Below, one piece after another: positions 9,584-64,000 of a stretch of 64,000 bases of DNA. The notes under the pieces were generated by a model, which had not been told where the DNA came from, did no database searches, and saw nothing but the letters and a program-made list of their open reading frames with translations. Position numbers and translations under genes: made by a program. Every line of letters starts with the position of its first letter. Within the stretch, counting starts at the first letter, position 1. Origin of the DNA: an uncultured Planctomycetia bacterium (lineage in GTDB: Bacteria; Omnitrophota; Gorgyraeia; 2-02-FULL-51-18); contig CAZXLF010000008.1 of the NCBI GenBank assembly GCA_964642015.1, forward strand, positions 18,705 through 82,704. Direction: 5' to 3'.

Positions 9584-9619
9584 ATGATTCTCTTTAATAT
9601 TTTCCGTTCAATTTTAAAT

Positions 9620-11044: not shown

Positions 11045-11045
11045 G

Positions 11046-12011: not shown

Positions 12012-12070
12012 ATTTTATTGGTCAACGATATTCGGTGTGCGGTTTGCGCAAACCGCCAACCGAAAACCGC

Positions 12071-14038: not shown

Positions 14039-14041
14039 GGT

Positions 14042-15172: not shown

Positions 15173-15187
15173 AAGAAAGATGCTGAC

Positions 15188-16930: not shown

Positions 16931-16938
16931 GATTTCCT

Positions 16939-19739: not shown

Positions 19740-19764
19740 CGGGGTCTCTCCGCGCTCGAAAAAG

Positions 19765-20502
19765 TTATTTGGAAATCAATTGCACGATCTCGGAAGCCGT
19801 CGCTTCGGCCGTCGAGGTGATCGTGCTGATCCTTCCTCTGAAATATGAATAAAAAGCGAGGCACGGTACCGCGATCACAAGTCCGAACGCGGTATTAATC
19901 ATCGCCTTGGCAAGTCCTTGAGTCAGAACGACCGGGTGGATCGTCCCCAGTTTGAAGTAGTTGAATGCGTCGATCATTCCTATAATAGTGCCCAAAAGAC
20001 CCAACATCGGCGCGATGACGGCCATATCGCCAAGATAATTGAGGTTCTGCCAAAGCTTTTCGATGCGCGCCTTGCCTTCATACTGTACCGCGCCTTCGAT
20101 CACGGCCTTGCCATGAGAAAGTCTGGATAACCCTTTAAGCGCGATCGATGAGATCATATTCTCCTGCTGCTTGCATACCGAAGTGGCCTTCTGGAACTCT
20201 TTTTTTTCCAACAGAAAAAGCAGGTTTTCTGTAAAATCGCGCGGCGCAAGTTTTTCAGGGTTAACATGCATGAAATGGTAAATGATCGAGGACACAGCTG
20301 CAACAGACAAAAGTCCTAAAAAGATCATGCAGGTACCGCCGGCAACGACCAGTTGCCATAACGTAGTGCCTTTGTCTGCTGTTTCGGAAACCGCACCTAC
20401 ACCGGTTTTGGCCGCGAAAGCGTTGTACCCGACGAACAGTATCGCAAGGATCAGCAATGGCAACACAAAATAAAGGAAACGAAATTTTTTTAACATATCC
20501 AC
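19765..20502 (-). CDS. exbB: MotA/TolQ/ExbB proton-channel family protein
   Basis: 245 aa. A signal/TM helix is followed by the ExbB core with GLLGTIIGMIDAF and a C-terminal TM helix. Confidence 0.85.
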   Translation of the reverse strand: MDMLKKFRFLYFVLPLLILAILFVGYNAFAAKTGVGAVSETADKGTTLWQLVVAGGTCMIFLGLLSVAAVSSIIYHFMHVNPEKLAPRDFTENLLFLLEKKEFQKATSVCKQQENMISSIALKGLSRLSHGKAVIEGAVQYEGKARIEKLWQNLNYLGDMAVIAPMLGLLGTIIGMIDAFNYFKLGTIHPVVLTQGLAKAMINTAFGLVIAVPCLAFYSYFRGRISTITSTAEATASEIVQLISK

Positions 20503-20557
20503 TCCCGTGATTGATGAACTGTTGGATTGATGCTGGATAAAAATTCTTTGTTGGATG

Positions 20558-20567
20558 TATTATAACA
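20558..20567 (-). promoter_or_regulatory. candidate extended -10 promoter for exbB
   Basis: The minus strand reads ttTGtTATAAT (TGnTATAAT) about 55 nt upstream of the exbB ATG. A GGGAG Shine-Dalgarno sequence lies 5 nt before the ATG at 20502. Confidence 0.35.
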
Positions 20568-20611
20568 AATATTTTTTTGGAAAGAAAAGGATTATCCTTG
20601 CCGGAAGACGG

Positions 20612-20649
20612 ACAAAAATAAGCTCCGCCGAAAGGATTCCGGCGGAGCT
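20612..20649 (-). terminator. Rho-independent terminator for the giant gene
   Basis: A perfect 10 bp GC-rich inverted repeat agctccgccg / cggcggagct (20621-20630 and 20640-20649) encloses a 9 nt loop. On the minus-strand transcript it is followed by UAUUUUUGU (complement of 20612-20620). It lies 160 nt downstream of the stop at 20810. Confidence 0.6.
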
Positions 20650-20809
20650 ATGAGCGCATTTGAAAAGTCGGCTACGCTCCGGACTGATTGGGATCGGTCG
20701 CGCTCCAGAGTAACGTATAGAAGCGATTTTTTGGATCGTTCTACTTCTCCCAAAGCGCGGGATTCGCGAAGCGTAGCCTAAAGATTAACAATGTAATGAA
20801 CAAAATACC

Positions 20810-23800
20810 TTATGCAGCAGAACCTATCGTCTGTGTTGCTGCCTTGACCGCCGATATCCATATCGCCCATTCAACCGGTGCGATCTTCGGCAAATATTTG
20901 AATACCCCATCCACCAGCTTTATGAAACCAGGAAGTTTGTCGCTCAACAGGTCGAGCACCAACAAGATCTGGGCTGCCTGTAATGCACCGCGAGCAGAAC
21001 GCTCTTCACCACTCTTCAATTCAAGCAGAAGCGCCTTCTTCTCGGAGCTGATGACAATATCAGCTTCATACTCTTTCTCGTTGGCAATGAGTACAAAATT
21101 TTTGTCTTTACCGTTTTTATCCTTTCCGAGAAGACCTGGAATTTGGGACAATTTCTTTTGTGCGTCGGAGATAAAATAGACATTATTCCCAAAAATACCT
21201 TTGATTTCATCCAATTCACCATTTTGAAGACCTGCGAGGTCGGTGTCGGATATCAAGACGCCCGGTGTCACAGCTCTTGCTTCGCGAATGTCTCTTTGAA
21301 TATCAACCTTGTTATCTTTGAAAGCCTTCACGTCATAGAGCGCATAACCAGCTACTTTACCAGCGTTGGCGAGTTCTGCTAATCTGGCCCCCACAGCATT
21401 TATCTTCTTGATATCGACCCCATAAACTGATTGCACAAATTCAGGTTGTCCAGCCAATGAAACAGCTACTTTCGCAGTGATCGAATCTGAAATATCATCA
21501 TTGCCAACTAACGCGCCGATCTGATCAAATGAAGCTTTAAGATCCGCAACCGCTTTCTTTCTGGAAGCATCGTTGCTCGCTTTGGATGCTTGCGACAAGG
21601 CGGATGCAAAAGCGGGCACGATCTCATTCAAGCCGGTTCTTAAATAGGCTTGACGTGTACGATAATCCAAAGTGAGTGTGACTTCTGTCGGACGAGGTAA
21701 ACGCAGTTCGCTTAGCGATCGGATAATCTCGGTTCGGATAGATTGTTCTTGTTCAGGAGTAAGATTCTGCTCGAGCGCTCTTGTCAGCTCTGTGAAAACT
21801 AAATTACTGATCGCATTGAAAGTCGCCAATTCTTTATCATTCAGCTGTCTCAACGCATTGATAAGGTTTCGCTTAGATTCGGGAGATTCGATCGTCGATT
21901 TATCGATGATCAAAGAAAGTTTGGTCTTGGAATTCAAAGCTTCGTTCACGGAACCAAAGATTACGGCATTGACCTGGCCTTGCTCGGCGCCGATCGATTT
22001 TACAAAGGCATCAAACTTCGAACGCGCTTCTTCGTTCGCACTTTCAGGGAGCACAAAGCCGATGTTCAAAACTGGTTGTTGAGGCAAAAGCTGCGCACTG
22101 GGCAGCTCCTGTTTTTCAGCCAGTCGAGCGCCCTGTTGCTGCAGCTCGGTCAATTGAGTAATATAATTGTTCAGACGCGTGATCGCTAAATTTCCGGCAG
22201 CTGAGGCGCGCCCTTGTTTTGTATCAGTCAAATATTTAACTGCAGCTTGTACCGAGACTAATATGTTTCTCATTTGAGCAATAGCACGATTAATATGACC
22301 GTTGACATCCGTTTGGCGGCTCTCAATCGCTAATTGCAATTCTCTAATCACGGCGCGCGTGGGAACAACCGTTTTATCTAGATGCAGGCGGAAAAGAGGA
22401 TCTTGATGCTTCGAAATCGCTTCTTGGGGCGTTTGCCAATTGCCTAGTTCACCCATCGCAGCTAAAAATTCTGTGCTGATTGCTATTAATCTTTCCGAAG
22501 GTTCTATCCGTTCTTCTTTGGCTAAACGCGCGCCGGCAACAACATTGGCATTAGAAATATAATCAATGAGTTTTTGCCGCTCATCGATACCCCTTGGTTT
22601 TGTCAATTCCTTATCTTGGAACCAAACAAAAATAAGTGCCTCTCTTAACAATTCAGATACAGGACGTTCGGTATAAGCCTTATAAGTCCTTGTGTCCATA
22701 CCCGGATTATTGCTTTCGTCTTTCACTATCTGAGTAATTGTCTCGGCATGCGCATCTATTATAGATTCGCCCGGATAATCCGCTCCGTTCAATTCTGTCA
22801 TCACAGCGGTTAAGCCTCTAAAATTATCAATACCGGATACCTCTGACAAATTCAAAAGCGTTTGATCCAATCTTTGTTTCTCTCCGGCAGCCAGAACTCC
22901 TTCCAGAGATTCTTTTGATTCAATCCGACGTTGAGCAAGTCGCGCACCGGCAGGAGAAACTTTGAAAAGCTCCTCAGCGCCTTTCCCGGCAAATTTTTCT
23001 GCGAGCTGTTCTTTTGTCAAAAGCAGCGGCTCTGTTTGAAGCGCTTGATGCAATGTTGCCCAAAATGCAGGATTGATATCCAGATGTGTCAGTTCGATCA
23101 AACGATCTCCGCGATATCCGCCGGCTTCAATCTCGGCTTTAAGAACATTCGCTTCCCTCACAAAATATGGAGTGAGCACACCTTTAATATAACGATAAGA
23201 CGGACCGTAAGCGCCCGTGCCTTCATATGTGATATGAATGATCCCTTCTTCGGCATTAAGTCTCTTGGCTGTTTCAAATGCTTTGCTCCCCGGTAAAATC
23301 AGTTTCAATCCCTTGGGGATAAGCGCCAGATCAAGGTCCTGTTTCTTCTGTCCGGAAGGTAACAGACCGGTGCGCGGAACAAATTGTCCACGAGAGAAAC
23401 TGCCGCTTACGGCAAAGCCGTATATCTCCCCTTCATCCACTAACTGCTGAAGCTCATTGATCACACGACGCCACTGAGGATTATCTTCAAAATACTTCCT
23501 GATCGCTTCGTTTTCCGCCGAAAGTCTGGCACCTTCTGTTTTGGCCTTTGTTTTATCAAAGAAATCGCGCGCGGCATGGCTTGCGGTCAAGATCGATTGT
23601 TTCGCGCTTTCAAGATCCGGCGTCTGGAAAGTCACACGAACGATAAATGCTCCTTCAGGGGTCACTAAAAGCGTATTCGTGACCGCTTTGCCTGACTTTT
23701 TACCTTCATCTGGAATAAATAGAACGCGATGAAAATCATTTGCGAATTGATCTTCGAAGGTAGAGGGTGAAGCGCCTGTTACGCTTGTAATTGCGAGCAC

Positions 23801-26800
23801 ACCTTTGCCTTTGACCGCTTCTTTCGAACGTGCAGAATTAAAGATTTCGTCCGGCAAAAATTCGCGGTAGCGGGCTAATTCCTCATTAGTATATCCGTAA
23901 GCTGTCGCAGCGCCGTAATTCGACGCGGTCGCTTCCGATGAAACGAAGCTATGAGGGAATTGGGCATTCGGCCGGTTGGCGATCGCGATCGTAGCCGCTG
24001 TCGCTTCTGCGGAACCGCTGCGCCCAAAAACCAAAAGGTGTCTTCCATTCAGGTCCGCACCGATACTTGCAACCACACGCGGCAATAGATCGCCATCGCC
24101 GGGCGTTTGGATCTTAAGTCCCGGATATTGCGACTGCAAGGCTCTCGCGTCATTGATGATCTGTTGATGACGATGCTGCGAAATAGCCTTTTCGTAATCT
24201 TTCTGCAGATCTGCCGCCCTGGGCCCCAGGGTCAAGATGGTAGCCTGATTGATGAAATCGGATTTAAACGTTGTGAACTCAGGACTGTTCACATCAATGC
24301 CGAGAGCTTCAGCTTTTACTTTCGCTATCTTCTCTAAAGCTGTGCTCGGCAGATCGAACGGCGTCACGCCTGCATCACTTGGCGCATTAAAGCTGACACC
24401 TCCTATACGAAAGTTATCGTTGATCAGAAAACGATTACGGCCATCGAGCTGGCTCTGAGAATCCTCTTCAAAGAACGAAAATAACGAAGTGCTGTCCGTC
24501 GGCGTAGACACCGCTTCAGGAACGATCAATCCATTCGTCTTTTCAAGCGCATCGCCGACGAAATAAAGGATTTTTACTCCTTGAGAACGAAGATCGCTAA
24601 GATGAGTATTCAAATCCGTCACGCCGCCGTACGGAATCTTTTTACCTTGGAAATAAACGCTTCCTAAATCTAATGAGTACGACAGATCTCTTGAGCCTTC
24701 ATCGGCCAATATCGCAACCGCAATATTCGGATTATGCTCCGTAAAATACTGAATGCTTCTCTCGGCAAAGTGCACTGCGTTGCCATCAGCGACTTCTTTT
24801 ACATCTTTACCCTGACCAGCAAAAAGTATCGAACCAAACGCCTGGCTTGCAGAAGAAGCAACCGCGAACGACGTTAAAGGATTATTCAGTGCCGTCGAAG
24901 CGGATTCAGTACGCGTATCGCCGAGAGCTTTGACTTCGATCTTCTCTGCTTTCAGATTGTAAGGGTTGCGTTCGAGCGCTGGACCGAAGTTTTCTGGCAC
25001 ATTGACCGGGATGAATTCCGCCAGGCGCGCTCCTGACAAAGCAACTGAAGACTTGGTGCCAATAATTCCTATTCCTTCAATGTTCACGGACGTGCGGTTA
25101 TATTGCCAGCGGCCTTCGCGCTGAATGCGCTCGATAGCCCGGTTCCTGCCCGTCAACTGTTGATTCTCGGCTGTCTTCAAATCTTCAGGATTGGCCTTGG
25201 CTTGGTCCGCAGCGTCAAATACATCGATCGATTGGACATGCGAATCCTTGAGCCCAATGTTCAAAAAGAACGGGAGAGCAGGATTCAGGTTATTTCCGTG
25301 GACAAACGCGTTCTTCAGCAGATCATTGATAATATCCTGCACTTCGGTATTTGCGGACTCGCCTTCAAACGCAAAGTTAAGCTGGGATGATAAACTGGAT
25401 AAAGCCAAACTGACCGATTTATAAAGATATTGTTTAGGATATGCTTGCAGACTCGTTAAGTCTATCCTGATCGCTTTCCCTTCGCGGACCGCTCGGACCA
25501 ATTCGGCAACCTGGGATTGACTGTAAGCATTGTTTAAGTCAAAGCTCAGGATCTCTTTAGCAGTAGAAACGTTCCTAACGTGCTCCGATAAACCTAACTC
25601 ATTGCCTGCTAAACGAGCACCTTGCTTTGGAGTCGGAGTCACAGCGATCGTATATAGCGAATTTTTATTTTGAAGAATAAGTCCAAGTACTCTATCGTAA
25701 TAGAAGCTTAGCCCGCTTACCTCTTTTTCAACACCGGGAGCGATCGAGTAATTATGGCCAGTGGCACGAGGCGACTCAATATGAAAAACCTCAAGACCAT
25801 TGGTGACGGGATTAAAGTCGATCTTCCAAGCGACGCTAGATTCGGGTGCAGATGCAGGTGTCTCAGGCGATGAAAAAGCAACAAGAAGCGCAAAGCTTCC
25901 CTTGTCGGCAACAGGATAACGCCCGCGCTCTTGAGGGCTAAGCCTTTGCGGGGAAACAGTTATAGATTCTAGCCCCCTAAGGAAAGTTAATTTTGCCTCA
26001 GCGGCCGTCAATTTTTCAATACCGGTCAATTCACTTTCCAAAACACCCTGGCTGACGGCAACATTTACGATACGCCTGACCGTTTCCACACCAGTTGCGC
26101 TCGACAAGGATATATTTTCCGCAACGGGAAGATTCGATAAAGCTCTGTTCGCACTGACGATGGCCTGCTGTTTGACTTCTTCATTAGTCAGCCGAGCGCC
26201 CTGCGGACGTGTAGTTTCATATCGGGTCCGAGCCTGAGTTAAGTCATTGAGCGCCTTCGCCAATTCCACATGCGCCACTTCAACTTCTTTCTCAGCTCGG
26301 ATCGTTCGCTCTATTAATTGAATCCTGTTACTCGGAACCTCTCTAACATCAATGGTCTTCGATAAATAACCTTGCCTTTTCCACGATTCCAATTCTTGAA
26401 TAACTTGCGCTGCAGCAACCTGCACGCCACCAGCTTCTCTTGTATAAATTGTTCTATCCTGGGATCTAATGAATTCACCTCGTGCGTCTTCACTTGATTC
26501 AATTTGAGCCAGTTTACCGCGCGCCACTGGACCAGGGTTTTTTCTTAATTCTTCAAGAAGAGGTATATAATTAACTTGCCCGTAACTAGGCTCTCCTTGT
26601 GATTCTGAACCTGTCCTTAAAAGTGGGAGTAATTGTCCTAGATATCCGATCGTGCGGTTATCGACCCCTCGATCAGATGAAATACCGTGACCTGAAAAAC
26701 GATCCAGTATCGCCGGATTTCTTGTTAAGATGCCTCTGATTAAAATATCAAAATCTCTCCGGAAATTTTCATCTCTAAATCGCTCTGTAATGCGCGTCGC

Positions 26801-29800
26801 CCACCGGCTGATATCATTATTATCAGCGCCGCCTATAAACTTCTCTAACAGCCTTTCGGCCGTCTCCTCCTGGGCTAGCCGGGCTCCGGCTGCCATTACC
26901 TCTAAATTCTCTATAATTTTTTGAGCCGCGCCCAGCGCTGTCAATGTTAGCTCAATTCTTTCCTGTACACTTGTTTCAGGCCGTTTCGCTATCTCGTGGA
27001 AATTGTCAATGCTCTGTTTTGCCTGCTGAAGCTGCGGGACGCCGTTAAAAACATCTTCCAAATATAAGAGAAGATCGGAATGGCGGTCTTCATAATCCAC
27101 ATGGAATGACAGACTCCAATCCCCAACCGTACCTAGCGAACGGACATAGTCAACGCTTTCAAAAAATCCTTTATAGCCGGGCGTACTCACTTTAACGACT
27201 TTCTCGGTCAATCCGTTCTGTTTGTATTTCCAGAAAAACGGTGAAAACCTTTCATTGAGCCCGTCCAATATTCTTCTCGCCTCATCCTGTCCAACGGTCT
27301 CGATATTTCCCAAATTTTTTCCAGCTTCCACAACTTTTTCCCTCTTATCACTTTCTTCAACGACGCCGGCAAGGAACGAGATCATCTGCCGAGCGGTCCT
27401 ATCCACACTCACTTTTGGCGATTGGAGAAGAGCGTTACGCGCCATCTCTCCGTATTTTTCCTTATCTTGGTAAATTTTGCTGAAGTTGACCAGAGCATCC
27501 AGGAAACCCGTTGTGGTAGGTTCGCCTTTACTATTAAAGGGTACGTTGAAACCGTTGGCGACTGCCTCGTTGTGTCCATCATAAAATGTGACTGATTCAG
27601 GCACAGCTCCATCGTGGCTGGCGATGATCAAGGCGCCATTCATTTGCGCTTTTTGAAAACCGGTGGCAGACGCTTCGCGTCCATCATCCGCAAGCATCAC
27701 CGAGAAATCAGTTCCTTGAAATAACTCAGGAGCTTCCCAAATGTTATAATTATCAAAAAATATGACTCTCTCCTTCAGCCGGCCCGTTTTATCGTCGTTG
27801 ACCGCTCTTAAAATTCTGTAATATTGTGTCAGCCCGTAGCTATCATCCTGGTGGGTTCTACCTCCAAAAACGAACACGATGCCCGAGGCGAGAAATGCCT
27901 CTCTCATCACATCGTTCTCTAAAACATCGGCGAATCGTTCGAGTCTCTTATATTCCACAATTCTTCTCACCCAAATGCCGATCGGGTTTTTATTATTGAT
28001 GGTCTTCTTGGCCCATGCCGACCAATCGTAACCGTCTTTCTTTTCGGCCATTCGTTGAGCAAGAAATTCCACAAGACGTGCACGACTTCTATCTTTGGCG
28101 GCTAAAATCTGATCGTTACTCATTCTCCTTACTTTTTCCAGATCTTTGAATTCATTTTGAGGCCAATAGGTCGAACTTACGCCATTAGTCACAAACTTGA
28201 TCTTAGAAGAAAACTGTCTCAAGAGGTCCATCTCCTTCATAACTTTGGCATGTTTTTCAGCGACGCCAAACACGCCATCCGAGGCATTTATAATGAGAGC
28301 TGTTGCATCGATCTTCCCTGTTGTGCTGTCCCGCACAGGCATGGATTCATCATAATATCGTGAGTCCACTTGCAGATGTTTCAGTGTCTTATCATCCCAA
28401 TGAGGATGCGCGTACAAAAGCGGAGTATGATCGTTAAAAATATAACGAGTACCCTTAAAAAATGGGTCGTTCTTAAAAGCGCTTCTTGCTGTGTCGCCAA
28501 AAACTTGGTGATGAACCATCATCGCTGAAGCTTCGCTCATGATCGTGACATCCGGTTTTTTATCCAATTTTTTAAGCAACGCAAGCGTTCCGTGACCTAA
28601 AATCCAGCTGTGATCGAACCTTGCCTCCTGCGCGTTATCAATATCGCGGACACCGGGATAAACGACATTGACTTTAGCAGTTATAATATCTTTGCCAAGT
28701 TCAGGAGCCAGGAAATAAACAGCTGCTTTACCATATACGCCCGCCGGGGCTTTTAGAACTTTTACATTTACTTTACGTCCGTCATACATGTCTACGGTGA
28801 TGTCAAACACGTGTTCCATAAGGTCTTTTAGATGGTGACTTACATTTTCTTTTTCAAGAGTAAGCGAACCATCCGGATGCACCTTCTGCACCCAAACGTG
28901 ATCATATAACAAAGACACCCCTGTCACGTCAGCGCCAAGTTCGCTGAGCGAAATCACTCTTTCCTTCAGCAATGGCCCTATCCCTCCTACTGAAGAAGCC
29001 ATCGCCGCTTTACGCATCTCGATCCTTCTTTGCTCATCCGTCAAAGAGCGATCTTCTTTTAATTTCGTCTGAAGGAGCCCCAATAATTCTCCACTCAAAG
29101 CCATTTCCATCGTAACTTCAACTATATGTTTATCTTTAAGAACAGGGTGATGAGCTTCAACAAACGATTGAGCTCCAGCAAGCCGTGCACCAGCTTCGGC
29201 CCGTTTAAACTTGAGCCACATAGGAAGCCTTCTGAAACCGTTCTTATCAGCCATGGCTTCCTGCAGTTTGGAACCTGCTCGCGCCTCCGCAGCTAGAAAT
29301 GTATTTTCGTAAACTGCCTGGACATCGCCGCTCGTACCGCCAACAATCGCATCGGTGATCTCAAGATCCGGATGTTTTTGACCGATGGCGTGAAGCGCTT
29401 GGACTGCATCGCTCAGCGTGGGATTACCTCTGATAAGAAGTGTCACGATACGATGATCTTTGGTGGTGGCAAAAATCGTCATCGGAAGCTGATGGTCAGG
29501 GCCGGACCAGCCTAATTGATTTCCTTTGGTCGTCGAGCCACCGTTTGTAAAATCGATCTTGTCTATAACGCTTACCCCGTCTTTTAAGATGCGCACACCG
29601 GCGATCGCTTCTTTAAAAATAAACTTATCCGGATTTAAAGCATTACCGGCCGCATCATAAGGTTGGCCATTTTTCAGCTCAACGTCATGGATCCCCGCTT
29701 TGTCGGCATCGAAAACAAGGAACGAAAAAGTTCCATTGAGCGGTTCTCCGACGGTTTCATTCAGTCCCAGCGTGTCCTGAGGCTTCATCACAAGTTTACC

Positions 29801-56800: not shown

Positions 56801-59800
56801 CAAAGCGCGAGTGACTCTAACTTCCTGGATCGCTTTTGCTCTTTCTGCTACAGCAGGCACAGGTACTTTATTTTCAGCTTTAAGTTTGTTGGCTGCGCTC
56901 TGCAAAACCACTGCCGTTTCAGGATTGTTTTCACGTAAAACTGGTGCGCTCCACCACAGATAACTCGAAAAAGCCAGCACCGTCGCTAAAGCATTCAAAA
57001 TAATCCTTTGAGTATTTTGTACTATATTTAGGCCTGCCAACCGAGCTCCCTCGGGCGCGCCCTTTTGCTTTTGCTGCAATTCCTCAATCTGGCGCTGAAC
57101 ATCTTCTATTTGTCTTTGGATTTGCCTGATATTCCGCTGCTGTCTTTGTCTTTCAAGTTGCAAAAGACGCCCAACATTGGCCCTAGATTCGCCAGAACCG
57201 GTCCTTCGGATCAATTTGGACCCGATCGCATCAACGACACTTCGGCTGGCGATGATCTGGTCGATGCGCTCAGAAAGTTGCTTAGCCTCTTCAGGAGTTT
57301 TGGCATTATTGAGCTGATCGGCGAATTTTACGATCTGAGCATCATTTTCATCGCCAAAAACTTTTAATACCGTATCTCCTGTAACAAGCTGATAGGTCGG
57401 CGGCGCGTCAGAAACTCGCACATAAACACCTCCGTGTGTGGCGGCATGTTTCTCGGCTTGAGCAGCAGCAACCGTTTTGCTGTTCGGAGCAATTTGGATC
57501 CAGCGCGTCTGAAGAGAAACCGTATTCTGCGGTGACGACACGCCCAACGCTCTAGACCAAAGTGCGCCGAGCTGTGCTTGAGCTCCCTGCAGACCGCCAA
57601 GGACCTCCTGCGCGTTTACGGGAAGACCGTTATTCAGTCTCGTGCGGCTAAGGTCGACCCCTCTTTCCATCCCGTAAAGGATATCGTTCATCTGTTTAAG
57701 GAATTGATCCCGTAACGTCGGAGCTTGGGGAGTTCTTTGAGGCAATCCGCGCGTGACACCGTATAATTTGTCTCCGCTCTCTCTGGTCAAATATTCACGC
57801 CACTCGGTCGTCATCGCGGCGTTTTCTCCAAAAATGACCTGATTAGTCGAAACTGAAAAATTCACACCGTTAATACGGATCGGTCCGGCTTGGTCGATAC
57901 GAAGCGGGTGCAAGCTTTCAGGACTTAATCTGCTGAAATCCACTGCAAAATAATAAGCGTAATAATTCTGGCCTTCTTGAAAAACGTGCTGGACACCAGG
58001 AATTATTTCTCCGGCGTTCTTTTTGTCAAAAGTTTCTTTAGAAATTTTCACTCTCGCCACGATCGCGGGATAATTATCGCGTCTTAAAGTGCTCAATGCA
58101 TCCGGATCAGAGCTTTTTTCTTCGATCAGATTGCGAGCCGGTACGTCTTCTCCCAAACGCGATATAGGAAAATCGACCCCATCATAAAGCGCGACGATCT
58201 GACCGTCCGGAGTGATCTGCGCAGCGTTTGCATAACGAAAATAAGTACCGTCCGCCGCCTGGTGACGAAAACCTGCGGCGGCTCGTTCCACAACAATCGA
58301 TTCAGCGGGCATCCCTTTGTCAGGATTGACATATTGACCTGTGATCTTTTGGTTGGCGTTGATACGGCCCCCATAATAACGGAACGGTCCATAAAAATTA
58401 CCGTAGTCATAGATATTATGGAAACTCAGCGGGCCATTCAATAAGAACGAACGAGTTTGTAGGAACCTGTCATTTTTTCTCGCTGTCTCAAGCTCTCTCG
58501 AAACTGCTGGCACTTGGGCAGCAGGCGCTGGCGCAGGTTTAAGATAAGTAGCGGGTGCGATCCCATAAACATCGTTCAAGTGTCCGGCGATTTCTGCGAT
58601 GCGCACACGGCGAGCCAGATTAAAAACATTCTGTTGAAGTGCCAATGTTTCAGTGTCCAACCTATCATAGAGCGCGCGTAACCGGTTTAGTTCCGCCTGA
58701 GCAGAATATGCAGACGCTTTATCAGTTGCTCTTCCCGCAAGCGCCGCGGATTGGCTATTGTAATAATTATTCATATATACCAGCATGCCGTTAATTCCCA
58801 GATACGCTCGCTGAACGTTCGTACCTTCCTTTTTATCTTCAAAACGCACAAAGATCGTCGAGTCCTTGGTCAATGCCTCGCGAAGCTCCGGCGTAGCGGC
58901 GGCCAGCAAACGTTCCTTAACAGCCTTATCCTTTGCAAATTCTGAAAAAGGCTTGATCAGTCCCATGTCCGTAGTCTCTATTAAACGAAATTCGCCCGGC
59001 TTCGTTTCGACAAGTCCCGCGCCAATGTGAGTCTGCAAAAGCATATCCGCAACAGCTAGCTCGTTGATCAATCTATTTATCTTTTCAGGATTAATTTCTC
59101 CGATCTGTGCTAATTCTGAATGAATAGGATGAGACGGCGTGGCAAAAGCATTCAACACATCCAAGTAAATCTGAAGCGATTTAGACTGGGCGGCCGCATC
59201 TTTGGGTGCTTTTTCAGACTCCATCTGAGCTAATAGATCTTTCTGAGCGGCTCTTGCTTTTTCGATAGCCTGTTGAAGCGTCTGACCTTGACGCTCTCCT
59301 TTAGCTGTTGGTTCCGAAGTCGGGATAACGGCGGCACGCCCCATATTACCAGTCGCATTGACGATCTCTTTTTGGAAGAAATTCTGAAGCGCATTCCGAT
59401 AAGCTGTTTCTTCGGCAGATAATTTTTCCTGAACAACGGCCTGACGTAACTCAAGCGGTTCAGTCAAGGCTACTTCTGCCGTTATAAATGAAACCACGAA
59501 AGGATCTGATTGATTTGAATATTGGCTGGCTATCGCATTGTCACGGTCGATCGAAAACTGTATGGGAACATTTCTACCGTTTTGGAGTTGAGTCATCGCA
59601 AATCTGACGCGCGCAATTTCCCGTTCAACCTGCTGGACAGCCTGCATCGCCGCAATTTGCGCTCTTTGGTCAGCTATCACTTGTTTACCGGCTGGCGGCT
59701 GGAACGCTTGATCCAAAAATGGCCGTACGAACGGTGACTGGCTTCCGCGGAAAATATCATAACCGGTAAGCGGCCTAAATTGTTTAGCTGTAGGCGCAAG

Positions 59801-62800
59801 AATCGGTAATCCCAGATCAGGCCGATAATTTGGTATCAGATTAATTTCTCTCGGGCGCAATAAATAATCTGAAAAAGAAGCCGGGCGCTCGTAGGGTTGA
59901 TAGATCGGCATCCGGATATTCGGGCTAACCTCCTGCCGGCGGGCCGCTAAAATAACTGATTCATTGTGGCGCCACAATCCCCATCCTTTCGTTGCCGCTT
60001 CGTGACGGCTCCACTCGCCGCTTTGCACTTTGGCCGCGATCTCTGCGTCAGTCGCTCGACGAGCTAAGTGCAATTGATATGCCCAATACGGATCTGAAAT
60101 ATTCGTCGGATACATTGTCTTGAACGAATCAAAATAACCCGGGGCACCTCCGCGTCCTAACATCGGGAAATAATCACCGGTATTCATGAAATACTGATGG
60201 CCGGGGACCATATTGCCTGTAGTGGGACGGCCAAATTGATCTCGATGTGAATTCGGATTGCGACCGGTGGTTGGATTACCAAACATGTCGGTATAAGCTC
60301 CTGCATTCCGTCCGGTAGGCGGCATTGGATATTGAGGAAATGGGTTAACAGGAGGCCGATATGAAGTTTGTGGTGCGGGCGGCTGCGAGACCAGAAAAAG
60401 AAGCACAGGTAATTTTTGTTTTTCCGGATCGATGCCGCTCGCAGCCGCGTGAGCGCGCAAAATATTATCGATCCTCTTCCATAGATCAGAGCCAAGACTT
60501 GATTCAAATTCGCGTGGCAGAGAAGCACCCGCTTCCATATGGAACGCCAACGATAAAGCCACAACATCCCGCGCCCATGCATCGCGCCTTTTTTGAATAT
60601 CCTCCTTGATCTCGTTATCTAACGCGTCGCTGATCGCGAACGCTCTCATGAAAAACTCGCCCGGCTTTCTTGTGCCCTCATCGAGATAACGGTGAATTTC
60701 CAACAACCTTGTGCTTAATTCCTCATCGGTGGGTTCATGGTGATAAAGCGGCTTCGCATCTTTTCTGTATTGAGGACTTGCGAAGAGCTTTTTAACAGCT
60801 TCATCGACTTTGGCGTGGAGCTCAGCGCTTGCCGGCACCGCTAGCGGATTTACTTGAGCCTGCCTTAAAGCATTCATAACGAGCGGATGATTCGCAGCTC
60901 GCTTTTCCATATCTCTATTCAATTTGGAAATCGCCTCGTTCATCAATCCAGCCGTCATCCCTGGCAAGCCGTCCGACGCCGGGCTGACCGTCACAGGATT
61001 TCCAGGCGCGGCTTCGTGCGACCTCAGCAACTCTTGAGCTTTTTTAAGCTCCGCTTCAAATTGCGCTCTTTGTTGTTGTAAATCCTTAATCTGTTGCTGA
61101 ACATCCGCTTTCGGCCGCCCTTCTCCGCCCTCTTTCTTTTTGCCTTTGTCACGTAATAGCGGTTCAAAAGCGGCTCTTTTCGATTCTTTACTCTCTTTCG
61201 AAGAAACAAACGCTGTTACATTTTCCGGCCTGCTCGTCGGAATTCCCTTAAAACTGCTCAAAAAGAATACAACTGTTAAAAAAACAATGCTTAAAACCGA
61301 AATAATCGGGATCATTCTCCAGTTGATCCGTCCGGTACGCTGTTCGCTTGGGCGAAAAGACGGGCTAACTATTTCCGCTTGCTGCGGCTTGGCTACTGAG
61401 ACTTTTTGTGTTGGTGCAATTACAGGTTTCGGCAAGGATTCTTTGGTCGAAATTGCCCAATTCTCCAAACTTGCTGAAGCATTTTGTCCTAACCGTCGTA
61501 CCCAAGCCGGCTCTTTTATGTTGTGGAGCAACAAATCGAGTTGCGCACTCAAGCGTTTTGCTTGCCGATCTCTGGCAGTTTGTTCCGTTTGAGGCAATGC
61601 TTCAAGCTGTCTTAGCTTTCTCATGACAGGCTCCGCCAAAGCAGATGCTATTTCCGACTGCGCAGGAGCTTGCGCCTGTTTCACTTGTTCCAGAAGTCTT
61701 TCAAATACACTGGCCTTCCAATCCTCCGATGAAAGCACGTTGGCTTTAGCCGCCTCTACAGCGTCGGAAAAACTCTGCAACGCTTCGGCGATCTGGATCG
61801 CATTGCGTTTCCTGAGCATCAGCAAAGATGCTTCATTTCGTTCCATAGAGATTCTTGTCTTTTTCTGCGAAGCTGCATCGGCACCAGCTAGTATTTCGGC
61901 CTTTTGAGAAATTAGTTCACCTAGTTTTTCGGCCCGGGCGGTACTTGCCTGTTTTCGAGAAAACGCATCCAATAAATCAGGCAGCGTAGTTTGAATAGAG
62001 GCTGTGTCGATGCCGCTGATTCCACGCACGCCTTCATTATAAGATTTTAATAGCTGATAAAGTTCGGGCATCGACCCTATTGCATCCAATGTTTTAAGCG
62101 CTTTTTGACGGTCGTTCCGGATCTGTCTCATAAATTTGTCACGCTGATTACCTGCAAATCCATCAATAGCCGCGCGAATCTTGGCATCCGTTTGCTTAAG
62201 TCTAGTTACCGTAGATTCGGAAACACCTGCAAGCCGGGCGATCTGTCTTTGTGTTACTCTAGTCACGCCTTGGCTTTTCAGATTAGCCACAGCATCCAAA
62301 ATGGCCTGCCCGGTACTTTTTTCGCCGACAGTTGGCAATGCAGCCGCAGGAGCCACCGCAGCCGGAGCCGGTATAGGAAACGCTTCATTGGCGATACGCT
62401 CTACTTCCGCGTCAAATTGTTTACGATCTATGACCTCGAATTTGGAAACCTTATCGGCCAAATCTTTAAAAGCCGCTATCGGATCCAATGTCGGCGTCGG
62501 AACTATAGGAGGCGTTTCAGGGGTTATTTTTTCCGTAGGCGTTTCTTCTGCAGGAGGATTCTCAACAGGAATTTCTGGCTCAGGCTTGATCTCTTCTTCT
62601 GAGGTTTGCGATCTCTGAGACTCCGACTTATTAACAAGCGATGATGTAATAATCGAAAGAAAGAAGCCGCCCAATAATACTATAGGAAGCGATTCGCTGC
62701 CTAAAGGCTGATTTTCTTCCTTATACGTATATAGTTCATCCGTCGCTTGCGCGACAACCGCATCTCTGGAGGCGGTCTGACCGGGCTTGTTTTGTTCGAC

Positions 62801-64000: not shown

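What the first reader, a model, noticed from the sequence alone, without database searches (positions are those of the whole stretch)
20810..64000. A single uninterrupted ORF of more than 43 kb (at least 14,393 codons) that runs off the window
One minus-strand frame stays open for 43,191 nt and is still open at the window edge. This is among the largest bacterial protein sizes and is the dominant feature of the window. The translation is a mosaic of enzymatic, repeat and membrane modules rather than a simple repeat expansion. It does not resemble a polyketide/nonribosomal synthetase (no ketosynthase, acyltransferase, condensation or adenylation signatures were seen), so it is unlike the commonly described giant-gene classes. 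Giant mosaic genes of this kind have been reported from candidate-phylum bacteria such as Omnitrophota. If that lineage applies it would fit, but this is inference from sequence character only.
Basis: seen in the sequence. Interest (0 to 1): 0.9.

Follow-up and report, generated by a model that had tools for sequence, protein, structure and literature searches.

The report
Giant multi-enzyme glucan-synthesis gene with junction motifs
The 43-kb open reading frame is a real bacterial gene, most likely from a Planctomycetia-type organism, that strings about two dozen complete sugar-polymer enzymes together, including a fungal-type glucan synthase; a conserved five-residue peptide marks each join and gives a concrete way to test whether such giant proteins are cut into pieces.

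Summary
The minus-strand frame is open from 20813 to 64000 (14,396 codons; stop at 20810-20812) and runs off the window. It is a real gene: dN/dS is 0.12-0.17 against two homologues that are themselves open over 17.4 and 23.6 kb, per-run assemblies are 100% identical over the 3' 9.7 kb, and the ORF has no DNA repeats.

The Omnitrophota guess is not supported: the closest homologue is labelled Planctomycetia. The architecture does match the "multi-enzyme" giant proteins described in Omnitrophota.

Recognised modules:
- A complete FKS-like GT48 glucan synthase (transmembrane cluster, catalytic domain, transmembrane cluster). Fungal Fks1/Fks2 are the top 13 structural matches.
- A HIT/GalT-like module and two sugar-nucleotide pyrophosphorylase-like modules.
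- GT5 glycogen synthase, a methyltransferase, GT35 phosphorylase and a GlpX-fold FBPase.

New here: the pentapeptide G-A-R-L-[A/T/S] occurs 23 times (0.5 expected), at cassette boundaries, conserved as peptide but not as DNA, and also in both homologues. Other lineages use other junction motifs (SSSP, SSAG).

The protein is almost cysteine-free (2 of 14,396).

I read it as a membrane-anchored glucan-synthesis polyprotein or beads-on-a-string assembly. Cleavage is inferred, not shown.

The parts
20810..64000 (-). Giant ORF. It has 14,396 codons plus a stop at 20810-20812, and its 5' end lies outside the window. Protein residue n corresponds to window bases 64000-3(n-1)-2 to 64000-3(n-1).
   Evidence: Open frame. 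dN/dS 0.12-0.17 against L002 and L006 in both annotated and unannotated parts. 100% identical independent assemblies of the 3' part. 2 Cys in 14,396 aa against 1.10% in the neighbouring proteins.
57050..64000 (-). aa 1-2317. N-terminal part, truncated by the window edge. It has two TM-like helices (aa 438-456 and 896-914) and no junction motif inside. Function unknown.
   Evidence: No Pfam, NCBIfam or PDB-sequence match. aa 2-326 is 27% identical to L006 residues 123-417. TM helices from hydropathy.
55373..57049 (-). aa 2318-2876. Cassette that opens with GARLA (window 57035-57049). Function unknown.
   Evidence: Motif. No family match.
48221..55372 (-). aa 2877-5260. Membrane cassette that opens with GARLA (55358-55372). 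It is the longest motif-free stretch. TM helices lie at aa 2900-2918, 2949-2967, 3264-3282 and probably 5165-5183. The proposed extracytoplasmic domain is aa 3283-5164 (window 48509-54154).
   Evidence: TM helices. aa 3291-5260 is 54-74% identical to L006 and L002. aa 4776-5158 is conserved in distant GT48-bearing giants, where it precedes a single TM helix followed by a basic stretch. Faint GH76 hit at aa ~3516-3625 (E 0.028).
43070..48220 (-). aa 5261-6977 (1,717 aa). A complete FKS-like GT48 glucan synthase unit that opens with GARLT (48206-48220). It has about 6 TM helices (aa 5596-5805, window 46586-47215), a cytoplasmic GT-A domain (aa ~5882-6369, window 44894-46357) and about 7-8 TM helices (aa 6352-6645, window 44066-44947). 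Catalytic motifs: K6155; D6175-V-N6177 (FKS1 DAN); E6270-D6271 (FKS1 ED); G-K-S-R at 6294-6297.
   Evidence: PF02364 E 2.3e-22, 79.5 bits, gathering cutoff 37.2. phmmer against yeast FKS1 residues 941-1318 with aligned motifs; residue roles from PMC12715860. E-D is nearly invariant in a 48-sequence family alignment. AF2 model pLDDT 76.6, pTM 0.78. The top 13 Foldseek PDB matches are all Fks1/Fks2, E down to 3.4e-22, TM-score 0.54 over about 1,115 columns.
43049..43069 (-). aa 6978-6984. First copy of a tandem junction motif (GARLAPT followed by GARLAQ).
42140..43048 (-). aa 6985-7287. Cassette that opens with GARLA (43034-43048). Function unknown.
   Evidence: No family match.
41057..42139 (-). 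aa 7288-7648. HIT/GalT-like (DUF4922) cassette that opens with GARLA (42125-42139). H-Q-H-F-Q motif at aa 7497-7501.
   Evidence: PF16269 E 9.4e-07, 29.3 bits, cutoff 23.6. Motif. The same cassette is present in L002, L006 and P0020, with block ends at the motif.
37799..41056 (-). aa 7649-8734. Cassette that opens with GARLA (41042-41056) and has a UTP-glucose-1-phosphate uridylyltransferase-like core at aa ~8202-8297.
   Evidence: PF01704 E 2.5e-08, 33.5 bits, cutoff 22. PDB 2i5k, E 0.008.
35909..37798 (-). aa 8735-9364. Cassette that opens with GARLT (37784-37798). Fucose-pyrophosphorylase-like nucleotidyltransferase domain at aa ~8873-9266.
   Evidence: PF07959 E 1.5e-11, 44.4 bits, cutoff 34.
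34913..35908 (-). aa 9365-9696. Cassette that opens with GARLA (35894-35908). Function unknown. Paralogous to the start of cassette aa 10343-10894.
   Evidence: Self-BLAST aligns 9362-9701 with 10340-10718. Motif.
32975..34912 (-). aa 9697-10342. GT5 glycogen/starch-synthase cassette that opens with GARLA (34898-34912). The enzyme's N-terminal strand starts 13 residues after the motif. Motifs: K-A-G-G (9726-9729), H-A-N-D-W (9835-9839), F-E-P-A-G (10176-10180).
   Evidence: PF08323 E 5e-28 and PF00534 E 5e-11. PDB glycogen and starch synthases down to E 1e-14. Motifs read, positions.
31319..32974 (-). aa 10343-10894. Cassette that opens with GARLA (32960-32974). Function unknown.
30170..31318 (-). 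aa 10895-11277. Class-I SAM methyltransferase-like cassette that opens with GARLA (31304-31318). Motif I is D-I-G-T-G at aa 11045-11049.
   Evidence: PF13649 23.6 bits and PF08241 20.1 bits, both just below their curated cutoffs. Motif read. Present twice in L002 and in L006, with block ends 1-5 residues from the motif.
29192..30169 (-). aa 11278-11603. Cassette that opens with GARLT (30155-30169). Function unknown.
26888..29191 (-). aa 11604-12371. GT35 alpha-glucan phosphorylase cassette that opens with GARLA (29177-29191). The PLP-lysine motif E-A-S-A-T-G-F-Q-K is at aa 12109-12117.
   Evidence: PF00343 E 5.6e-19, 68.3 bits, covering profile positions 308-580 of 713. TIGR02094. PDB phosphorylases at about E 1e-8. 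Motif.
26201..26887 (-). aa 12372-12600. Small cassette that opens with GARLA (26873-26887). Function unknown.
25622..26200 (-). aa 12601-12793. Small cassette that opens with GARLT (26186-26200). Function unknown.
25034..25621 (-). aa 12794-12989. Small cassette that opens with GARLA (25607-25621). Function unknown.
23534..25033 (-). aa 12990-13489. Class-II (GlpX-type) fructose-bisphosphatase-fold cassette that opens with GARLA (25019-25033).
   Evidence: 40-54% identity to the shared module of P0011-P0018. AF2 model pLDDT 78, pTM 0.81; the motif sits at the end of a disordered 44-residue leader. Foldseek match to 5a5l FBPase/SBPase, E 3.2e-13, prob 1.00, target TM-score 0.73. The Pfam GlpX signal is only faint, and only in homologue P0013.
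22949..23533 (-). aa 13490-13684. Small cassette that opens with GARLS (23519-23533). Function unknown.
22535..22948 (-). aa 13685-13822. Small cassette that opens with GARLA (22934-22948). Function unknown.
22133..22534 (-). aa 13823-13956. Small cassette that opens with GARLA (22520-22534). Function unknown.
21392..22132 (-). aa 13957-14203. Cassette that opens with GARLA (22118-22132). Function unknown.
20813..21391 (-). aa 14204-14396. Last cassette, which opens with GARLA (21377-21391). The C-terminus reads ...TIGSAA.
20621..20649 (-). Terminator-like hairpin (13-bp stem with 8 G-C pairs, followed by a T-run) between the giant gene's stop and exbB. It suggests the giant gene ends its own transcription unit.
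   Evidence: This is a consensus scan only; 3 such sites were found against 2.0 expected in the 2-kb region scanned.

Best explanation
The ORF is a genuine gene of a Planctomycetia-affiliated bacterium. It encodes a membrane-anchored chain of at least 23 cassettes, and most of the recognisable ones are full-size enzymes of sugar activation and glucan metabolism.

Centrepiece. The core is a complete FKS-type (GT48) processive glucan synthase/translocase. A membrane cassette with a roughly 1,900-residue probable extracytoplasmic domain precedes it. About 18 cassettes follow it, and I read them as cytoplasmic.

Recognised downstream cassettes:
- a HIT/GalT-like nucleotidyl-transferase
- two sugar-1-phosphate nucleotidylyltransferase-like modules
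- a GT5 alpha-glucan synthase
- a SAM methyltransferase
- a GT35 alpha-glucan phosphorylase
- a GlpX-fold fructose-bisphosphatase

Proposed working. Sugar phosphates are made and activated to NDP-glucose next to the membrane. The activated sugar is handed to the GT48 core, which polymerises it and extrudes a beta-glucan through its own TM channel. The GT5/GT35 pair builds and phosphorolyses an alpha-glucan buffer that recycles glucose-1-phosphate.

Junction peptide. Every cassette opens with the conserved peptide [A/Q]-G-A-R-L-[A/T/S]. I take this as the signal read by one dedicated factor, most likely a processing protease. On that reading the ORF is a bacterial polyprotein that delivers a whole pathway in fixed stoichiometry at one membrane site.

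Shown: the ORF, purifying selection, the domain homologies and catalytic motifs, the two predicted folds, and the motif with its coincidence with cassette boundaries.
Inferred: enzyme activities, substrate and product, membrane topology and cleavage.

My probabilities: real multi-enzyme cassette gene about 0.95; functional FKS-like glucan synthase about 0.7; motif is a functional junction signal about 0.85; motif is a cleavage site about 0.4.
For: Gene reality:
- Open frame.
- dN/dS 0.12-0.17 in annotated and unannotated regions alike.
- Homologues L002 and L006 are open over their entire 17.4 and 23.6 kb.
- Independent assemblies are identical over the 3' part.

GT48 core:
- Pfam match above the curated cutoff.
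- The FKS1 motifs K, D-x-N, E-D and G-K-x-R are aligned and conserved.
- The TM-GT-TM layout is present.
- The AF2 model matches Fks1/Fks2 best, E 3e-22.

Other enzymes.

Junction motif:
- 23 occurrences against 0.5 expected; the maximum in 2,000 shuffles was 5.
- 0 occurrences in the 17 neighbouring proteins and at most 1 in any other reading frame.
- Codons vary at every position, so the conservation is at peptide level.
- 9 of 19 independent homology-block boundaries lie within 15 residues of a motif; 0 of 20,000 random placements reach that.
- The motif is kept at orthologous junctions of L002 and L006 while the upstream flanks diverge.
- In the AF2 model it lies in a disordered leader directly before the fold.
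- Cassette sizes equal those of free-standing enzymes; for example, GT5 starts 13 residues after the motif.
- Other lineages of GT48-bearing giants carry different recurrent junction peptides. S-S-S-P occurs 8 times against 0.07 expected. K-x-S-S-A-G occurs once two residues before an adenylate-kinase P-loop N-terminus.

Topology:
- A strongly basic stretch follows the last TM helix.
- No motif occurs inside the proposed ectodomain segment.
Against: - No protease family was found anywhere in the 14,396 residues. No proteomic data were available, so cleavage is unproven.
- PGI and PGM, which the proposed pathway needs between FBPase and NDP-glucose, were not recognised. About 8,000 residues have no annotation at all.
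- The methyltransferase and GlpX assignments are below Pfam cutoffs at sequence level.
- The simple hydropathy count gives 7 helices after the GT domain. That would put the C-terminal enzymes outside the cell unless one helix is not membrane-spanning.
- Free-standing relatives of the FBPase-like cassette (P0011-P0018) carry Sec-type signal peptides, which suggests an exported role for that fold.
- The near-total lack of cysteine is more typical of exported proteins (my own knowledge).
- The lineage assignment rests on one submitter-given record title.
Confidence: 0.5

Rival explanations
1. Uncut mega-enzyme. The protein stays in one piece, as a beads-on-a-string scaffold of more than 1.5 MDa anchored by the FKS-like core. 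G-A-R-L-A is then a conserved linker element or short linear motif bound by a partner, for instance the 811-residue TPR protein encoded two genes downstream. It would organise or regulate the chain, not mark cuts.
For: - No protease domain was found.
- The motif sits in a disordered linker, which is where short linear motifs are found.
- A TPR protein, a typical peptide-motif binder, lies in the exbB-exbD-TPR-VWA cluster directly downstream.
- The published Omnitrophota work could not show cleavage either.
Against: - Many of the folds normally work as homo-oligomers: GlgP, GlpX and UDP-glucose pyrophosphorylases (my own knowledge). That is hard to reconcile with permanent tethering in one chain.
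- A terminator-like hairpin separates the giant gene from the TPR cluster.
- A pure spacer would not need an invariant pentapeptide.
Confidence: 0.3
2. Predation or cell-surface weapon, as proposed for Omnitrophota 'Archaeovorins'. Most of the chain would be extracytoplasmic and act on foreign cell walls or polysaccharides. The enzyme-like folds would serve to bind, remodel or degrade glycans outside the cell.
For: - West-Roberts 2023 predict mostly extracellular localisation for GT5 and glycolytic-fold domains in giant proteins.
- Relatives of the FBPase-like cassette carry signal peptides.
- Extreme cysteine depletion.
- An odd hydropathy count of TM helices after the GT domain.
- A possible GH76-like region in the N-terminal part.
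Against: - The recognisable modules need NTPs, NDP-sugars, SAM, PLP/phosphate or sugar phosphates, which are cytoplasmic metabolites.
- Their catalytic motifs are intact.
- The segment after the last TM helix is strongly basic, consistent with the positive-inside rule.
- No dockerin, lectin, peptidoglycan hydrolase or SecA-DEAD domain was found.
- The genomic context is that of a free-living heterotroph.
Confidence: 0.12
3. Artefact. On this view the long frame is a chimeric or collapsed assembly, or a decayed non-coding relic that happens to stay open.
For: - The window comes from a metagenome-type assembly.
- The 5' 26 kb of the ORF was not seen in a second identical assembly here.
- Module order differs between the window, L002 and L006.
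Against: - An open run of 14,396 codons against a next-best run of 819.
- Purifying selection in every segment tested.
- Homologues from two other samples are equally open.
- Identical independent assemblies for the 3' 9.7 kb, with 16 kb recorded.
- No repeats that could mislead an assembler.
- Conserved catalytic motifs.
Confidence: 0.02

Closest known systems
Giant 'multi-enzyme metabolic cluster' proteins of Omnitrophota (Nielsen & Lui 2026, bioRxiv 10.64898/2026.06.07.730766, class 1), and the 'Archaeovorin' giants with many transmembrane helices described by West-Roberts et al. 2023 (bioRxiv 10.1101/2023.11.21.568195)
   Same: - More than 10,000 residues.
- Many different enzyme Pfams tile one polypeptide with none dominating.
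- Clusters of TM helices.
- Starch-synthase GT5 (PF08323) plus GT1, methyltransferase, HIT and sugar-phosphate enzymes including FBPase-like folds.
- PVC superphylum.
- Post-translational cleavage has been suspected but never located.
   Different: - The host appears to be a Planctomycetia-type free-living bacterium, not Omnitrophota.
- No SecA-DEAD, C39 or S8 peptidase, dockerin, PGM/PMM or HEAT scaffolding was found in the 14,396 residues available.
- The FKS-type GT48 core is not mentioned in the main text of either paper ('glucan synthase' has 0 occurrences).
- Neither paper's main text uses 'linker' or 'polyprotein', and only West-Roberts discusses cleavage. It states that information on cleavage points is absent.
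[quoted passage not shown]
   Same: - Same layout of TM cluster, cytoplasmic GT-A domain and TM cluster, and a similar unit size (1,717 against 1,876 residues).
- The motifs K1082, D-A-N, E-D and G-K-G-R have counterparts.
- The predicted fold matches Fks1/Fks2 better than any cellulose, chitin or hyaluronan synthase.
   Different: - About 14% identity.
- D-V-N in place of D-A-N.
- FKS1 residues Y849 and E851 fall outside the alignable region.
- No N-terminal accessory domain was recognised.
- No Rho1-type GTPase partner is expected in a bacterium.
- The unit is embedded in a protein of more than 14,000 residues.
- Product linkage is unknown.
- Characterised GT48 enzymes are eukaryotic (my own knowledge, not tested here).
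Giant genes of Planctomycetota (Reva & Tummler 2008; Kohn 2016; reviewed in PMC12673574)
   Same: The phylum is known for many genes longer than 5 kb and proteins above 10,000 residues, some linked to carbohydrate metabolism or the cell surface.
   Different: Those reports give general categories (surface, transport, signalling, calcium binding). I found no description of a GT48-centred enzyme chain or of junction peptides. At more than 43 kb this gene is also at the top of the size range quoted for the phylum: West-Roberts report no protein above 30,000 aa in PVC phyla other than Omnitrophota.
Cyclic beta-1,2-glucan synthase Cgs/NdvB/ChvB of Brucella and Agrobacterium (my own knowledge)
   Same: One membrane polypeptide combines a processive glucan-synthesising glycosyltransferase with a glucan phosphorylase domain, which is the same logic of synthesis plus phosphorolytic control.
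   Different: Cgs is about 2,900 residues and uses GT84 and GH94 domains, not GT48, GT5 and GT35. It has no nucleotide-sugar-forming modules and no junction motif. It is an analogy only.
Viral polyproteins and eukaryotic multifunctional chains such as AROM (my own knowledge)
   Same: Several complete enzymes are encoded in one ORF. In viral polyproteins, short conserved peptides at the joins are read by one protease.
   Different: No protease was identified here and cleavage was not shown. The scale (at least 23 cassettes) and the bacterial chromosomal setting are unlike either.

Membership tests
GT48 (FKS / callose-synthase type glucan synthases) | Sequence match to the family model (Pfam PF02364) above its curated threshold | tested here: met
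   79.5 bits against a cutoff of 37.2, E 2.3e-22, covering profile positions 3-509 of 819. phmmer match to yeast FKS1 residues 941-1318, E 1e-8.
GT48 (FKS / callose-synthase type glucan synthases) | Catalytic and UDP-glucose-binding residues: K1082, D1102-A-N1104, E1221-D1222 (review PMC12715860) | tested here: met
   These align to K6155, D6175-V-N6177 and E6270-D6271. G-K-S-R aligns to G-K-G-R. E-D is at least 90% conserved in 48 family members. N1085 aligns to S. Y849 and E851 fall outside the alignment.
GT48 (FKS / callose-synthase type glucan synthases) | Architecture of TM helices, cytoplasmic GT-A domain and TM helices, with an overall fold like Fks1 | tested here: met
   About 6 helices, the GT domain, then about 7 helices. 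AF2 model pTM 0.78. The top 13 Foldseek PDB matches are all Fks1/Fks2, TM-score 0.54 over about 1,115 columns, ahead of BcsA, CesA, Chs and HAS.
GT48 (FKS / callose-synthase type glucan synthases) | Synthesises beta-1,3-glucan from UDP-glucose | not testable with these tools
   Needs biochemistry.
GT5 bacterial glycogen / starch synthase | GT-B two-domain match (PF08323 plus PF00534) and motifs K-x-G-G, H-x-x-D-W and E of F-E-P-x-G | tested here: met
   E 5e-28 and 5e-11. PDB synthases down to E 1e-14. Motifs at aa 9726, 9835 and 10176. The usual Cys of F-E-P-C-G is Ala here.
GT35 alpha-glucan phosphorylase | Full-length match to the family and the PLP-binding lysine motif | tested here: inconclusive
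   PF00343 scores 68.3 bits but covers only profile positions 308-580 of 713. The motif E-A-S-x-T-G-x-x-K is present at aa 12109-12117. The N-terminal half was not recognised, although the cassette has full enzyme size (768 aa).
Class II (GlpX) fructose-1,6-bisphosphatase | Family sequence model and fold | tested here: inconclusive
   Fold: Foldseek match to 5a5l, E 3.2e-13, prob 1.00, target TM-score 0.73. Sequence: no Pfam hit for the window's module; PF03320 reaches only E 0.015 in homologue P0013; the profile search against PDB sequences found nothing. Metal-binding residues were not checked.
Omnitrophota multi-enzyme giant proteins (Nielsen & Lui class 1) | At least 10,000 aa, many distinct Pfams with none dominant, and TM helices or a signal peptide | tested here: met
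   At least 14,396 aa; 9 distinct domain families, none recurring beyond one weak internal duplication; 19 TM-like helices.
Omnitrophota multi-enzyme giant proteins (Nielsen & Lui class 1) | Encoded by Omnitrophota (class Gorgyraeia) | tested here: not met
   The closest genome homologue is titled Planctomycetia. The neighbouring genes suggest an aerobic heterotroph. No marker-gene phylogeny was possible.
'Archaeovorin' giants with many transmembrane helices (West-Roberts 2023) | Numerous TM regions plus a divergent SecA DEAD helicase domain; often C39 or S8 peptidase | tested here: inconclusive
   TM regions are present. No SecA_DEAD, C39 or S8 hit appeared in overlapping tiles at E up to 0.01-0.05. 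The N-terminal part of the gene is outside the window and could not be examined.
PKS / NRPS megasynthases | Ketosynthase, acyltransferase, condensation or adenylation domains, and carrier proteins | tested here: not met
   None was found in any Pfam tile or in PDB sequence searches.
Polyprotein (one ORF processed into several proteins) | Conserved short recognition peptide at the junctions between complete functional units | tested here: met
   G-A-R-L-[A/T/S] occurs 23 times against 0.5 expected, at cassette borders, conserved as peptide and not as DNA, and shared with L002 and L006.
Polyprotein (one ORF processed into several proteins) | A cognate protease and demonstrated cleavage products | tested here: inconclusive
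   No protease family was detected in the available 14,396 residues or in the 17 neighbouring genes. Cleavage itself cannot be tested with these tools.

The most novel reading that the evidence does not exclude
G-A-R-L-A here, and the analogous lineage-specific peptides S-S-S-P and K-x-S-S-A-G in other GT48-bearing giants, are processing sites. On this reading the enigmatic giant genes of the PVC superphylum are bacterial polyproteins: whole metabolic pathways fused into one ORF, built around a bacterial FKS-type glucan synthase, shuffled cassette by cassette, and cut by a co-evolving protease into stoichiometric, co-localised enzymes.
Probability: 0.35. Interest if true: 0.9.

Novelty: new variant of a known kind. 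Interest (0 to 1): 0.72.

Why it matters
Giant genes of PVC bacteria are a recognised puzzle. Both key papers leave open whether the products work as one chain or are cut, and one states that the absence of known cleavage points blocked further analysis.

This locus supplies an explicit, statistically unambiguous set of 23 junction sites that partition the protein into enzyme-sized cassettes. Similar but different junction peptides occur in other lineages. That turns the question into a direct experiment: look for termini at, or peptides across, G-A-R-L-A. It also gives a rational way to cut such proteins for structure prediction.

The locus also shows that a fungal-type GT48 glucan synthase is the conserved core of a large family of very long, mostly cysteine-poor proteins. 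The family has 335 clusters at 50% identity, 73 of them below E 1e-30 and 20 of the best 150 above 5,000 residues. This bears on the origin of a eukaryotic cell-wall enzyme and antifungal drug target.

Finally, the locus extends the 'multi-enzyme giant' architecture beyond Omnitrophota to a probably free-living planctomycete.

Tried and rejected
Searches that found nothing:
- The word-indexed homologue search with the GT48+TM tile returned nothing, probably because hydrophobic words swamped the candidate list. The exhaustive HMMER search then found 335 cluster representatives.
- PDB sequence search of residues 1-5000 gave no hit.
- NCBIfam on ten tiles gave only the phosphorylase.
- A profile of the FBPase-like module against PDB sequences gave nothing. 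Only structure prediction plus Foldseek identified it.

Attempts to reach the source contig and the gene's 5' end:
- Cluster look-ups showed that the neighbouring genes sit on an NCBI contig of 138,673 bp.
- Gene-position look-ups returned only short Logan contigs.
- Exact look-ups of the truncated ORF fragments failed.
- The total length, start codon and any signal peptide therefore remain unknown.

Other dead ends:
- Accession searches in the literature (ERP125453, SRR12313480, Ga0080064) gave nothing usable. PRJEB41565 was a guess of mine and is not linked to this locus.
- A protease was looked for with Pfam/NCBIfam tiles and simple catalytic-motif patterns (GDSGG, HExxH, DTG and others); none was found. 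A cysteine protease inside the window is unlikely, because there are only two cysteines and neither is conserved.
- The genomic context of the signal-peptide-bearing relatives P0011 and P0012 was uninformative.

Readings I rejected:
- The motif as a DNA-level recombination or repeat element: its codons vary freely and the ORF has no DNA repeats.
- Compositional bias around the motif: not different from background (0.59 against 0.57).
- Plasmid origin: no match in the plasmid collection for a flanking gene.
- No Rfam family or tRNA anywhere in the window, and no tandem repeats in the ORF.

Full report
**1. Observation**

The minus-strand frame that begins at base 64000 is open down to 20813 (14,396 codons), with the stop at 20810-20812. 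The next longest open stretch in the window is 819 codons. The base composition is 46% G+C. Codon-position GC is constant along the whole ORF (GC1 0.51-0.57, GC2 0.38-0.42, GC3 0.44-0.48). The ORF has no tandem repeats and no DNA self-repeats. Only two weak internal protein duplications exist.

**2. Is it a real gene?**

A scan of one genome per species found a single relative, L002 (contig CAYJXB010000021.1). It is 68% identical over the query tile, and all 17,369 bases of the locus are one open frame. A scan of JGI metagenomes found L006 (Ga0080064_1000216, a 168,673-bp contig). It is 70% identical, and all 23.6 kb are open.

Nei-Gojobori dN/dS between the window and these homologues is 0.12-0.17, in regions with and without recognisable domains. 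Per-run Logan assemblies SRR12313479 and SRR12313480 are 100% identical to the window over 10922-30496 and 9765-25956. The former contig is recorded as holding 5,398 codons of the ORF. Misassembly or a decayed relic is therefore very unlikely. What remains unverified by an identical second assembly is the 5' 26 kb.

**3. Lineage**

L002's record title is 'uncultured Planctomycetia bacterium'. All other genes in the window lie downstream on the same strand:
- exbB, exbD, an 811-aa TPR protein, a VWA protein and a GT4
- a hemD-hemE fusion, hemH and a HemY-like oxidase
- GST, a TrmA-like methyltransferase, acyl-CoA dehydrogenase, DJ-1, a PD-(D/E)XK nuclease, MsrA, TfoX, a DHH phosphoesterase and iPGM

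This looks like a free-living, probably aerobic heterotroph. It does not look like the fermentative, terminal-oxidase-lacking Omnitrophota described. The Omnitrophota suggestion is not supported. A marker-gene placement could not be made here.

**4. Anatomy**

I scanned overlapping 1,000-residue Pfam tiles, NCBIfam and PDB sequences. In protein coordinates they give:
- GT48 Glucan_synthase, aa ~5882-6369, flanked by TM clusters at aa 5596-5805 and 6352-6645
- DUF4922 (HIT/GalT branch; H-Q-H-F-Q at aa 7497-7501)
- a UDPGP-like core, aa ~8202-8297
- a fucose-pyrophosphorylase-like domain, aa 8873-9266
- GT5 plus GT1 glycogen synthase, aa 9709-10283
- a class-I methyltransferase, aa ~11043-11150 (just below the curated cutoffs)
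- GT35 phosphorylase, aa 11874-12140

Residues 1-5500 and 12150-14396 gave nothing by sequence.

The word-indexed search with the C-terminal 1,200 residues found eight proteins, P0011-P0018. They share a roughly 500-residue module with aa 12990-13489 at 40-54% identity. An AlphaFold2 model built with them (pLDDT 78, pTM 0.81) matches a class-II FBPase/SBPase (5a5l, E 3e-13).

Catalytic signatures are intact:
- GT48: FKS1 K1082, D-A-N and E-D align to K6155, D-V-N 6175-6177 and E-D 6270-6271.
- GT5: K-A-G-G, H-A-N-D-W and F-E-P-A-G.
- GT35: the PLP-lysine motif.

No ketosynthase, acyltransferase, condensation or adenylation domain is present.

**5. The FKS-like core**

An exhaustive HMMER search with aa 5560-6700 against 1.84 billion cluster representatives found 335 proteins at E<=1e-3, 168 at <=1e-10 and 73 at <=1e-30. 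Of the best 150, 62 are at least 2,000 residues long and 20 are at least 5,000.

The family consensus (GKP..Q..F.RGE...D.NQD...HYGHPD...EDI...GK.RE) is even closer to yeast FKS1 than the window's copy. E-D is nearly invariant.

A model of the core built on that alignment (pLDDT 76.6, pTM 0.78) has Fks1/Fks2 cryo-EM structures as its 13 best PDB matches (E 3.4e-22 to 1.9e-13; TM-score up to 0.54 over about 1,115 columns). These rank ahead of bacterial and plant cellulose synthases, chitin synthases and hyaluronan synthases. Membership of GT48 is met on every feature that can be tested in silico. The product remains untested.

**6. The junction peptide**

A k-mer count shows GARL 23 times against 0.5 expected, and GARLA 18 times against 0.05. 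The maximum in 2,000 shuffles is 5. It occurs 0 times in the 17 neighbouring proteins and at most once in any other frame.

The sites are aa 2318, 2877, 5261, 6978, 6985, 7288, 7649, 8735, 9365, 9697, 10343, 10895, 11278, 11604, 12372, 12601, 12794, 12990, 13490, 13685, 13823, 13957 and 14204.

The flanks are not conserved. All four or six codons are used for G, A, R, L and A, so selection acts on the peptide and not on the DNA.

The sites coincide with boundaries defined independently:
- The ends of homology blocks with L002 and L006 (7281/7657, 8729-8733, 9369, 10893/11283).
- The internal repeat (9362/9701, 10340).
- The shared FBPase-like module (about 12999/13493).

Nine of 19 distinct boundaries lie within 15 residues of a motif. 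None of 20,000 random placements reaches that.

L002 has 8 copies and L006 has 7, kept at orthologous junctions while the upstream flanks diverge. In the AF2 model the motif ends a 44-residue disordered leader directly before the fold.

The segments between motifs have the sizes of free-standing enzymes:
- FKS-like unit: 1,717 aa
- HIT: 361 aa
- GT5: 646 aa, with the enzyme's first strand 13 residues after the motif
- GT35: 768 aa
- FBPase-like: 500 aa

Cassette order differs between the three homologues, with breakpoints at the motif; for example, the methyltransferase cassette is duplicated in L002 and L006.

Distant GT48-bearing giants carry their own recurrent junction peptides. S-S-S-P-[L/V] occurs 8 times against 0.07 expected in P0030 and 6 times against 0.06 in P0037. 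K-x-S-S-A-G occurs in P0021 and P0024, once two residues before an adenylate-kinase P-loop N-terminus.

Neither giant-gene paper's main text contains 'linker' or 'polyprotein'. [quoted passage not shown]

**7. Topology (inferred)**

Region aa 4776-5158 is conserved in distant relatives. There it precedes a single TM helix followed by a basic stretch. The equivalent helix here is aa 5165-5183.

With the GT domain cytoplasmic and about six helices before it, residues 3283-5164 would be extracytoplasmic. This lies within the one long stretch (aa 2877-5260) that lacks the motif. The sequence after the last helix (aa 6645) is strongly basic, which favours a cytoplasmic location for the roughly 7,700 C-terminal residues. 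Their cofactor needs require that location.

The raw hydropathy count of seven helices after the GT domain conflicts with this, unless one is an interface helix as in Fks1.

**8. Cysteine**

Two cysteines occur in 14,396 residues, against 1.10% in the neighbours (binomial P about 9e-66). The same DNA has 349 and 683 TGY codons in the other two frames. L002 has 0 of 5,789 and L006 has 2 of 7,864. The wider family has a median of 0.39%. Even canonical cysteines are replaced (F-E-P-C-G to F-E-P-A-G; G-C-G to G-T-G). I have no satisfactory explanation for this.

**9. Mechanism and rivals**

The best-supported reading is a membrane-anchored glucan factory. Cytoplasmic cassettes make and activate hexose phosphates. 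An FKS-like synthase polymerises and exports a glucan. A GT5/GT35 pair buffers glucose-1-phosphate.

The junction peptide is read by one factor. I favour a processing protease, that is, a polyprotein, at about 0.4. An uncut chain in which the motif is a binding or linker element comes next, at about 0.3. A surface 'weapon' role as proposed for Omnitrophota is at about 0.12. An artefact is at about 0.02.

Against cleavage: no protease was found and no product data exist. Against the pathway: PGI and PGM were not recognised, and more than half of the residues are unannotated.

**10. Comparison and novelty**

The closest described kind is the multi-enzyme giant protein of Omnitrophota. Giant genes are also well known in Planctomycetota. 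The finding is therefore not a new category.

The new points are:
- the probable planctomycete host
- a complete fungal-type GT48 synthase as the conserved core of a large family of very long proteins
- the invariant junction pentapeptide that delimits shufflable, enzyme-sized cassettes
- the cysteine purge

The junction sites make the long-standing 'cleaved or not' question directly testable.

Noticed in passing
window 20813-64000 (whole ORF); also L002 and L006: Near-total absence of cysteine. There are 2 in 14,396 residues (C376 and C6171, neither conserved) against 1.10% in the neighbouring proteins. L002 has 0 of 5,789 and L006 has 2 of 7,864. Canonical Cys positions in the GT5 and methyltransferase motifs are substituted. 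Unexplained.
   Followed up: partly
P0021, P0024, P0030, P0037 (proteins): Other GT48-bearing giant proteins carry their own over-represented junction peptides: S-S-S-P-[L/V] and K-x-S-S-A-G. One S-S-A-G lies two residues before an adenylate-kinase P-loop N-terminus. This suggests a general, lineage-specific junction code.
   Followed up: partly
P0011-P0018; loci L007 and L008: A family of 727-1,768-residue, cysteine-poor proteins with Sec-type signal peptides. They combine the same GlpX-fold FBPase-like module with class-I aldolase (PF00274, two copies in P0012) or class-II aldolase-like regions. These are 'glycolytic' folds that appear to be exported.
   Followed up: partly
P0047 (1,140 aa): An apparently full-length, stand-alone FKS-like protein. 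It starts with Met and carries a TM-GT-TM unit of about 1,100 residues. The GT48 core therefore also exists outside giant proteins.
   Followed up: no
window 12071-14038 (-), with 11046-12011 and 9620-11044: A fused hemD-hemE gene (PF02602 plus PF01208, 655 aa), followed by hemH and an amine-oxidase-family HemY-like gene. Together they form a compact late-haem-pathway cluster.
   Followed up: no
window 15188-20502 (-) and 20621-20649: An exbB-exbD-TPR (811 aa)-VWA (580 aa) cluster lies directly downstream of the giant gene. A strong terminator-like hairpin separates the two. Whether the cluster is functionally linked to the giant protein is unknown.
   Followed up: partly
window 1-64000: Every sizeable gene in the window is on the minus strand, and the GC skew of the plus strand is negative in every 2-kb bin. 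The giant gene may therefore be co-oriented with replication. A coding-strand purine bias would give the same pattern.
   Followed up: no
window ~53126-53455 (aa ~3516-3625) and P0033 residues 153-250: Faint Glyco_hydro_76 similarity in the proposed ectodomain (E 0.028), and 24.1 bits (cutoff 25.9) in P0033, a relative that shares nearby parts of that region (aa 3439-3554 and 3804-4044). This hints at an (alpha/alpha)6-type glycan-processing domain next to the synthase.
   Followed up: partly
window 22949-23533 (aa 13490-13684) and 29192-30169 (aa 11278-11603): By eye, the first small cassette has a Pol-beta-type nucleotidyltransferase-like G-S...D-x-D pattern. The second resembles modules I saw in P0021 and P0037. 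Neither reached any family threshold.
   Followed up: no
window 62174-62273 (aa 576-609): A weak helix-turn-helix-like hit (LacI family, 21 bits, below the cutoff of 27) in the N-terminal unknown region. Probably spurious.
   Followed up: no
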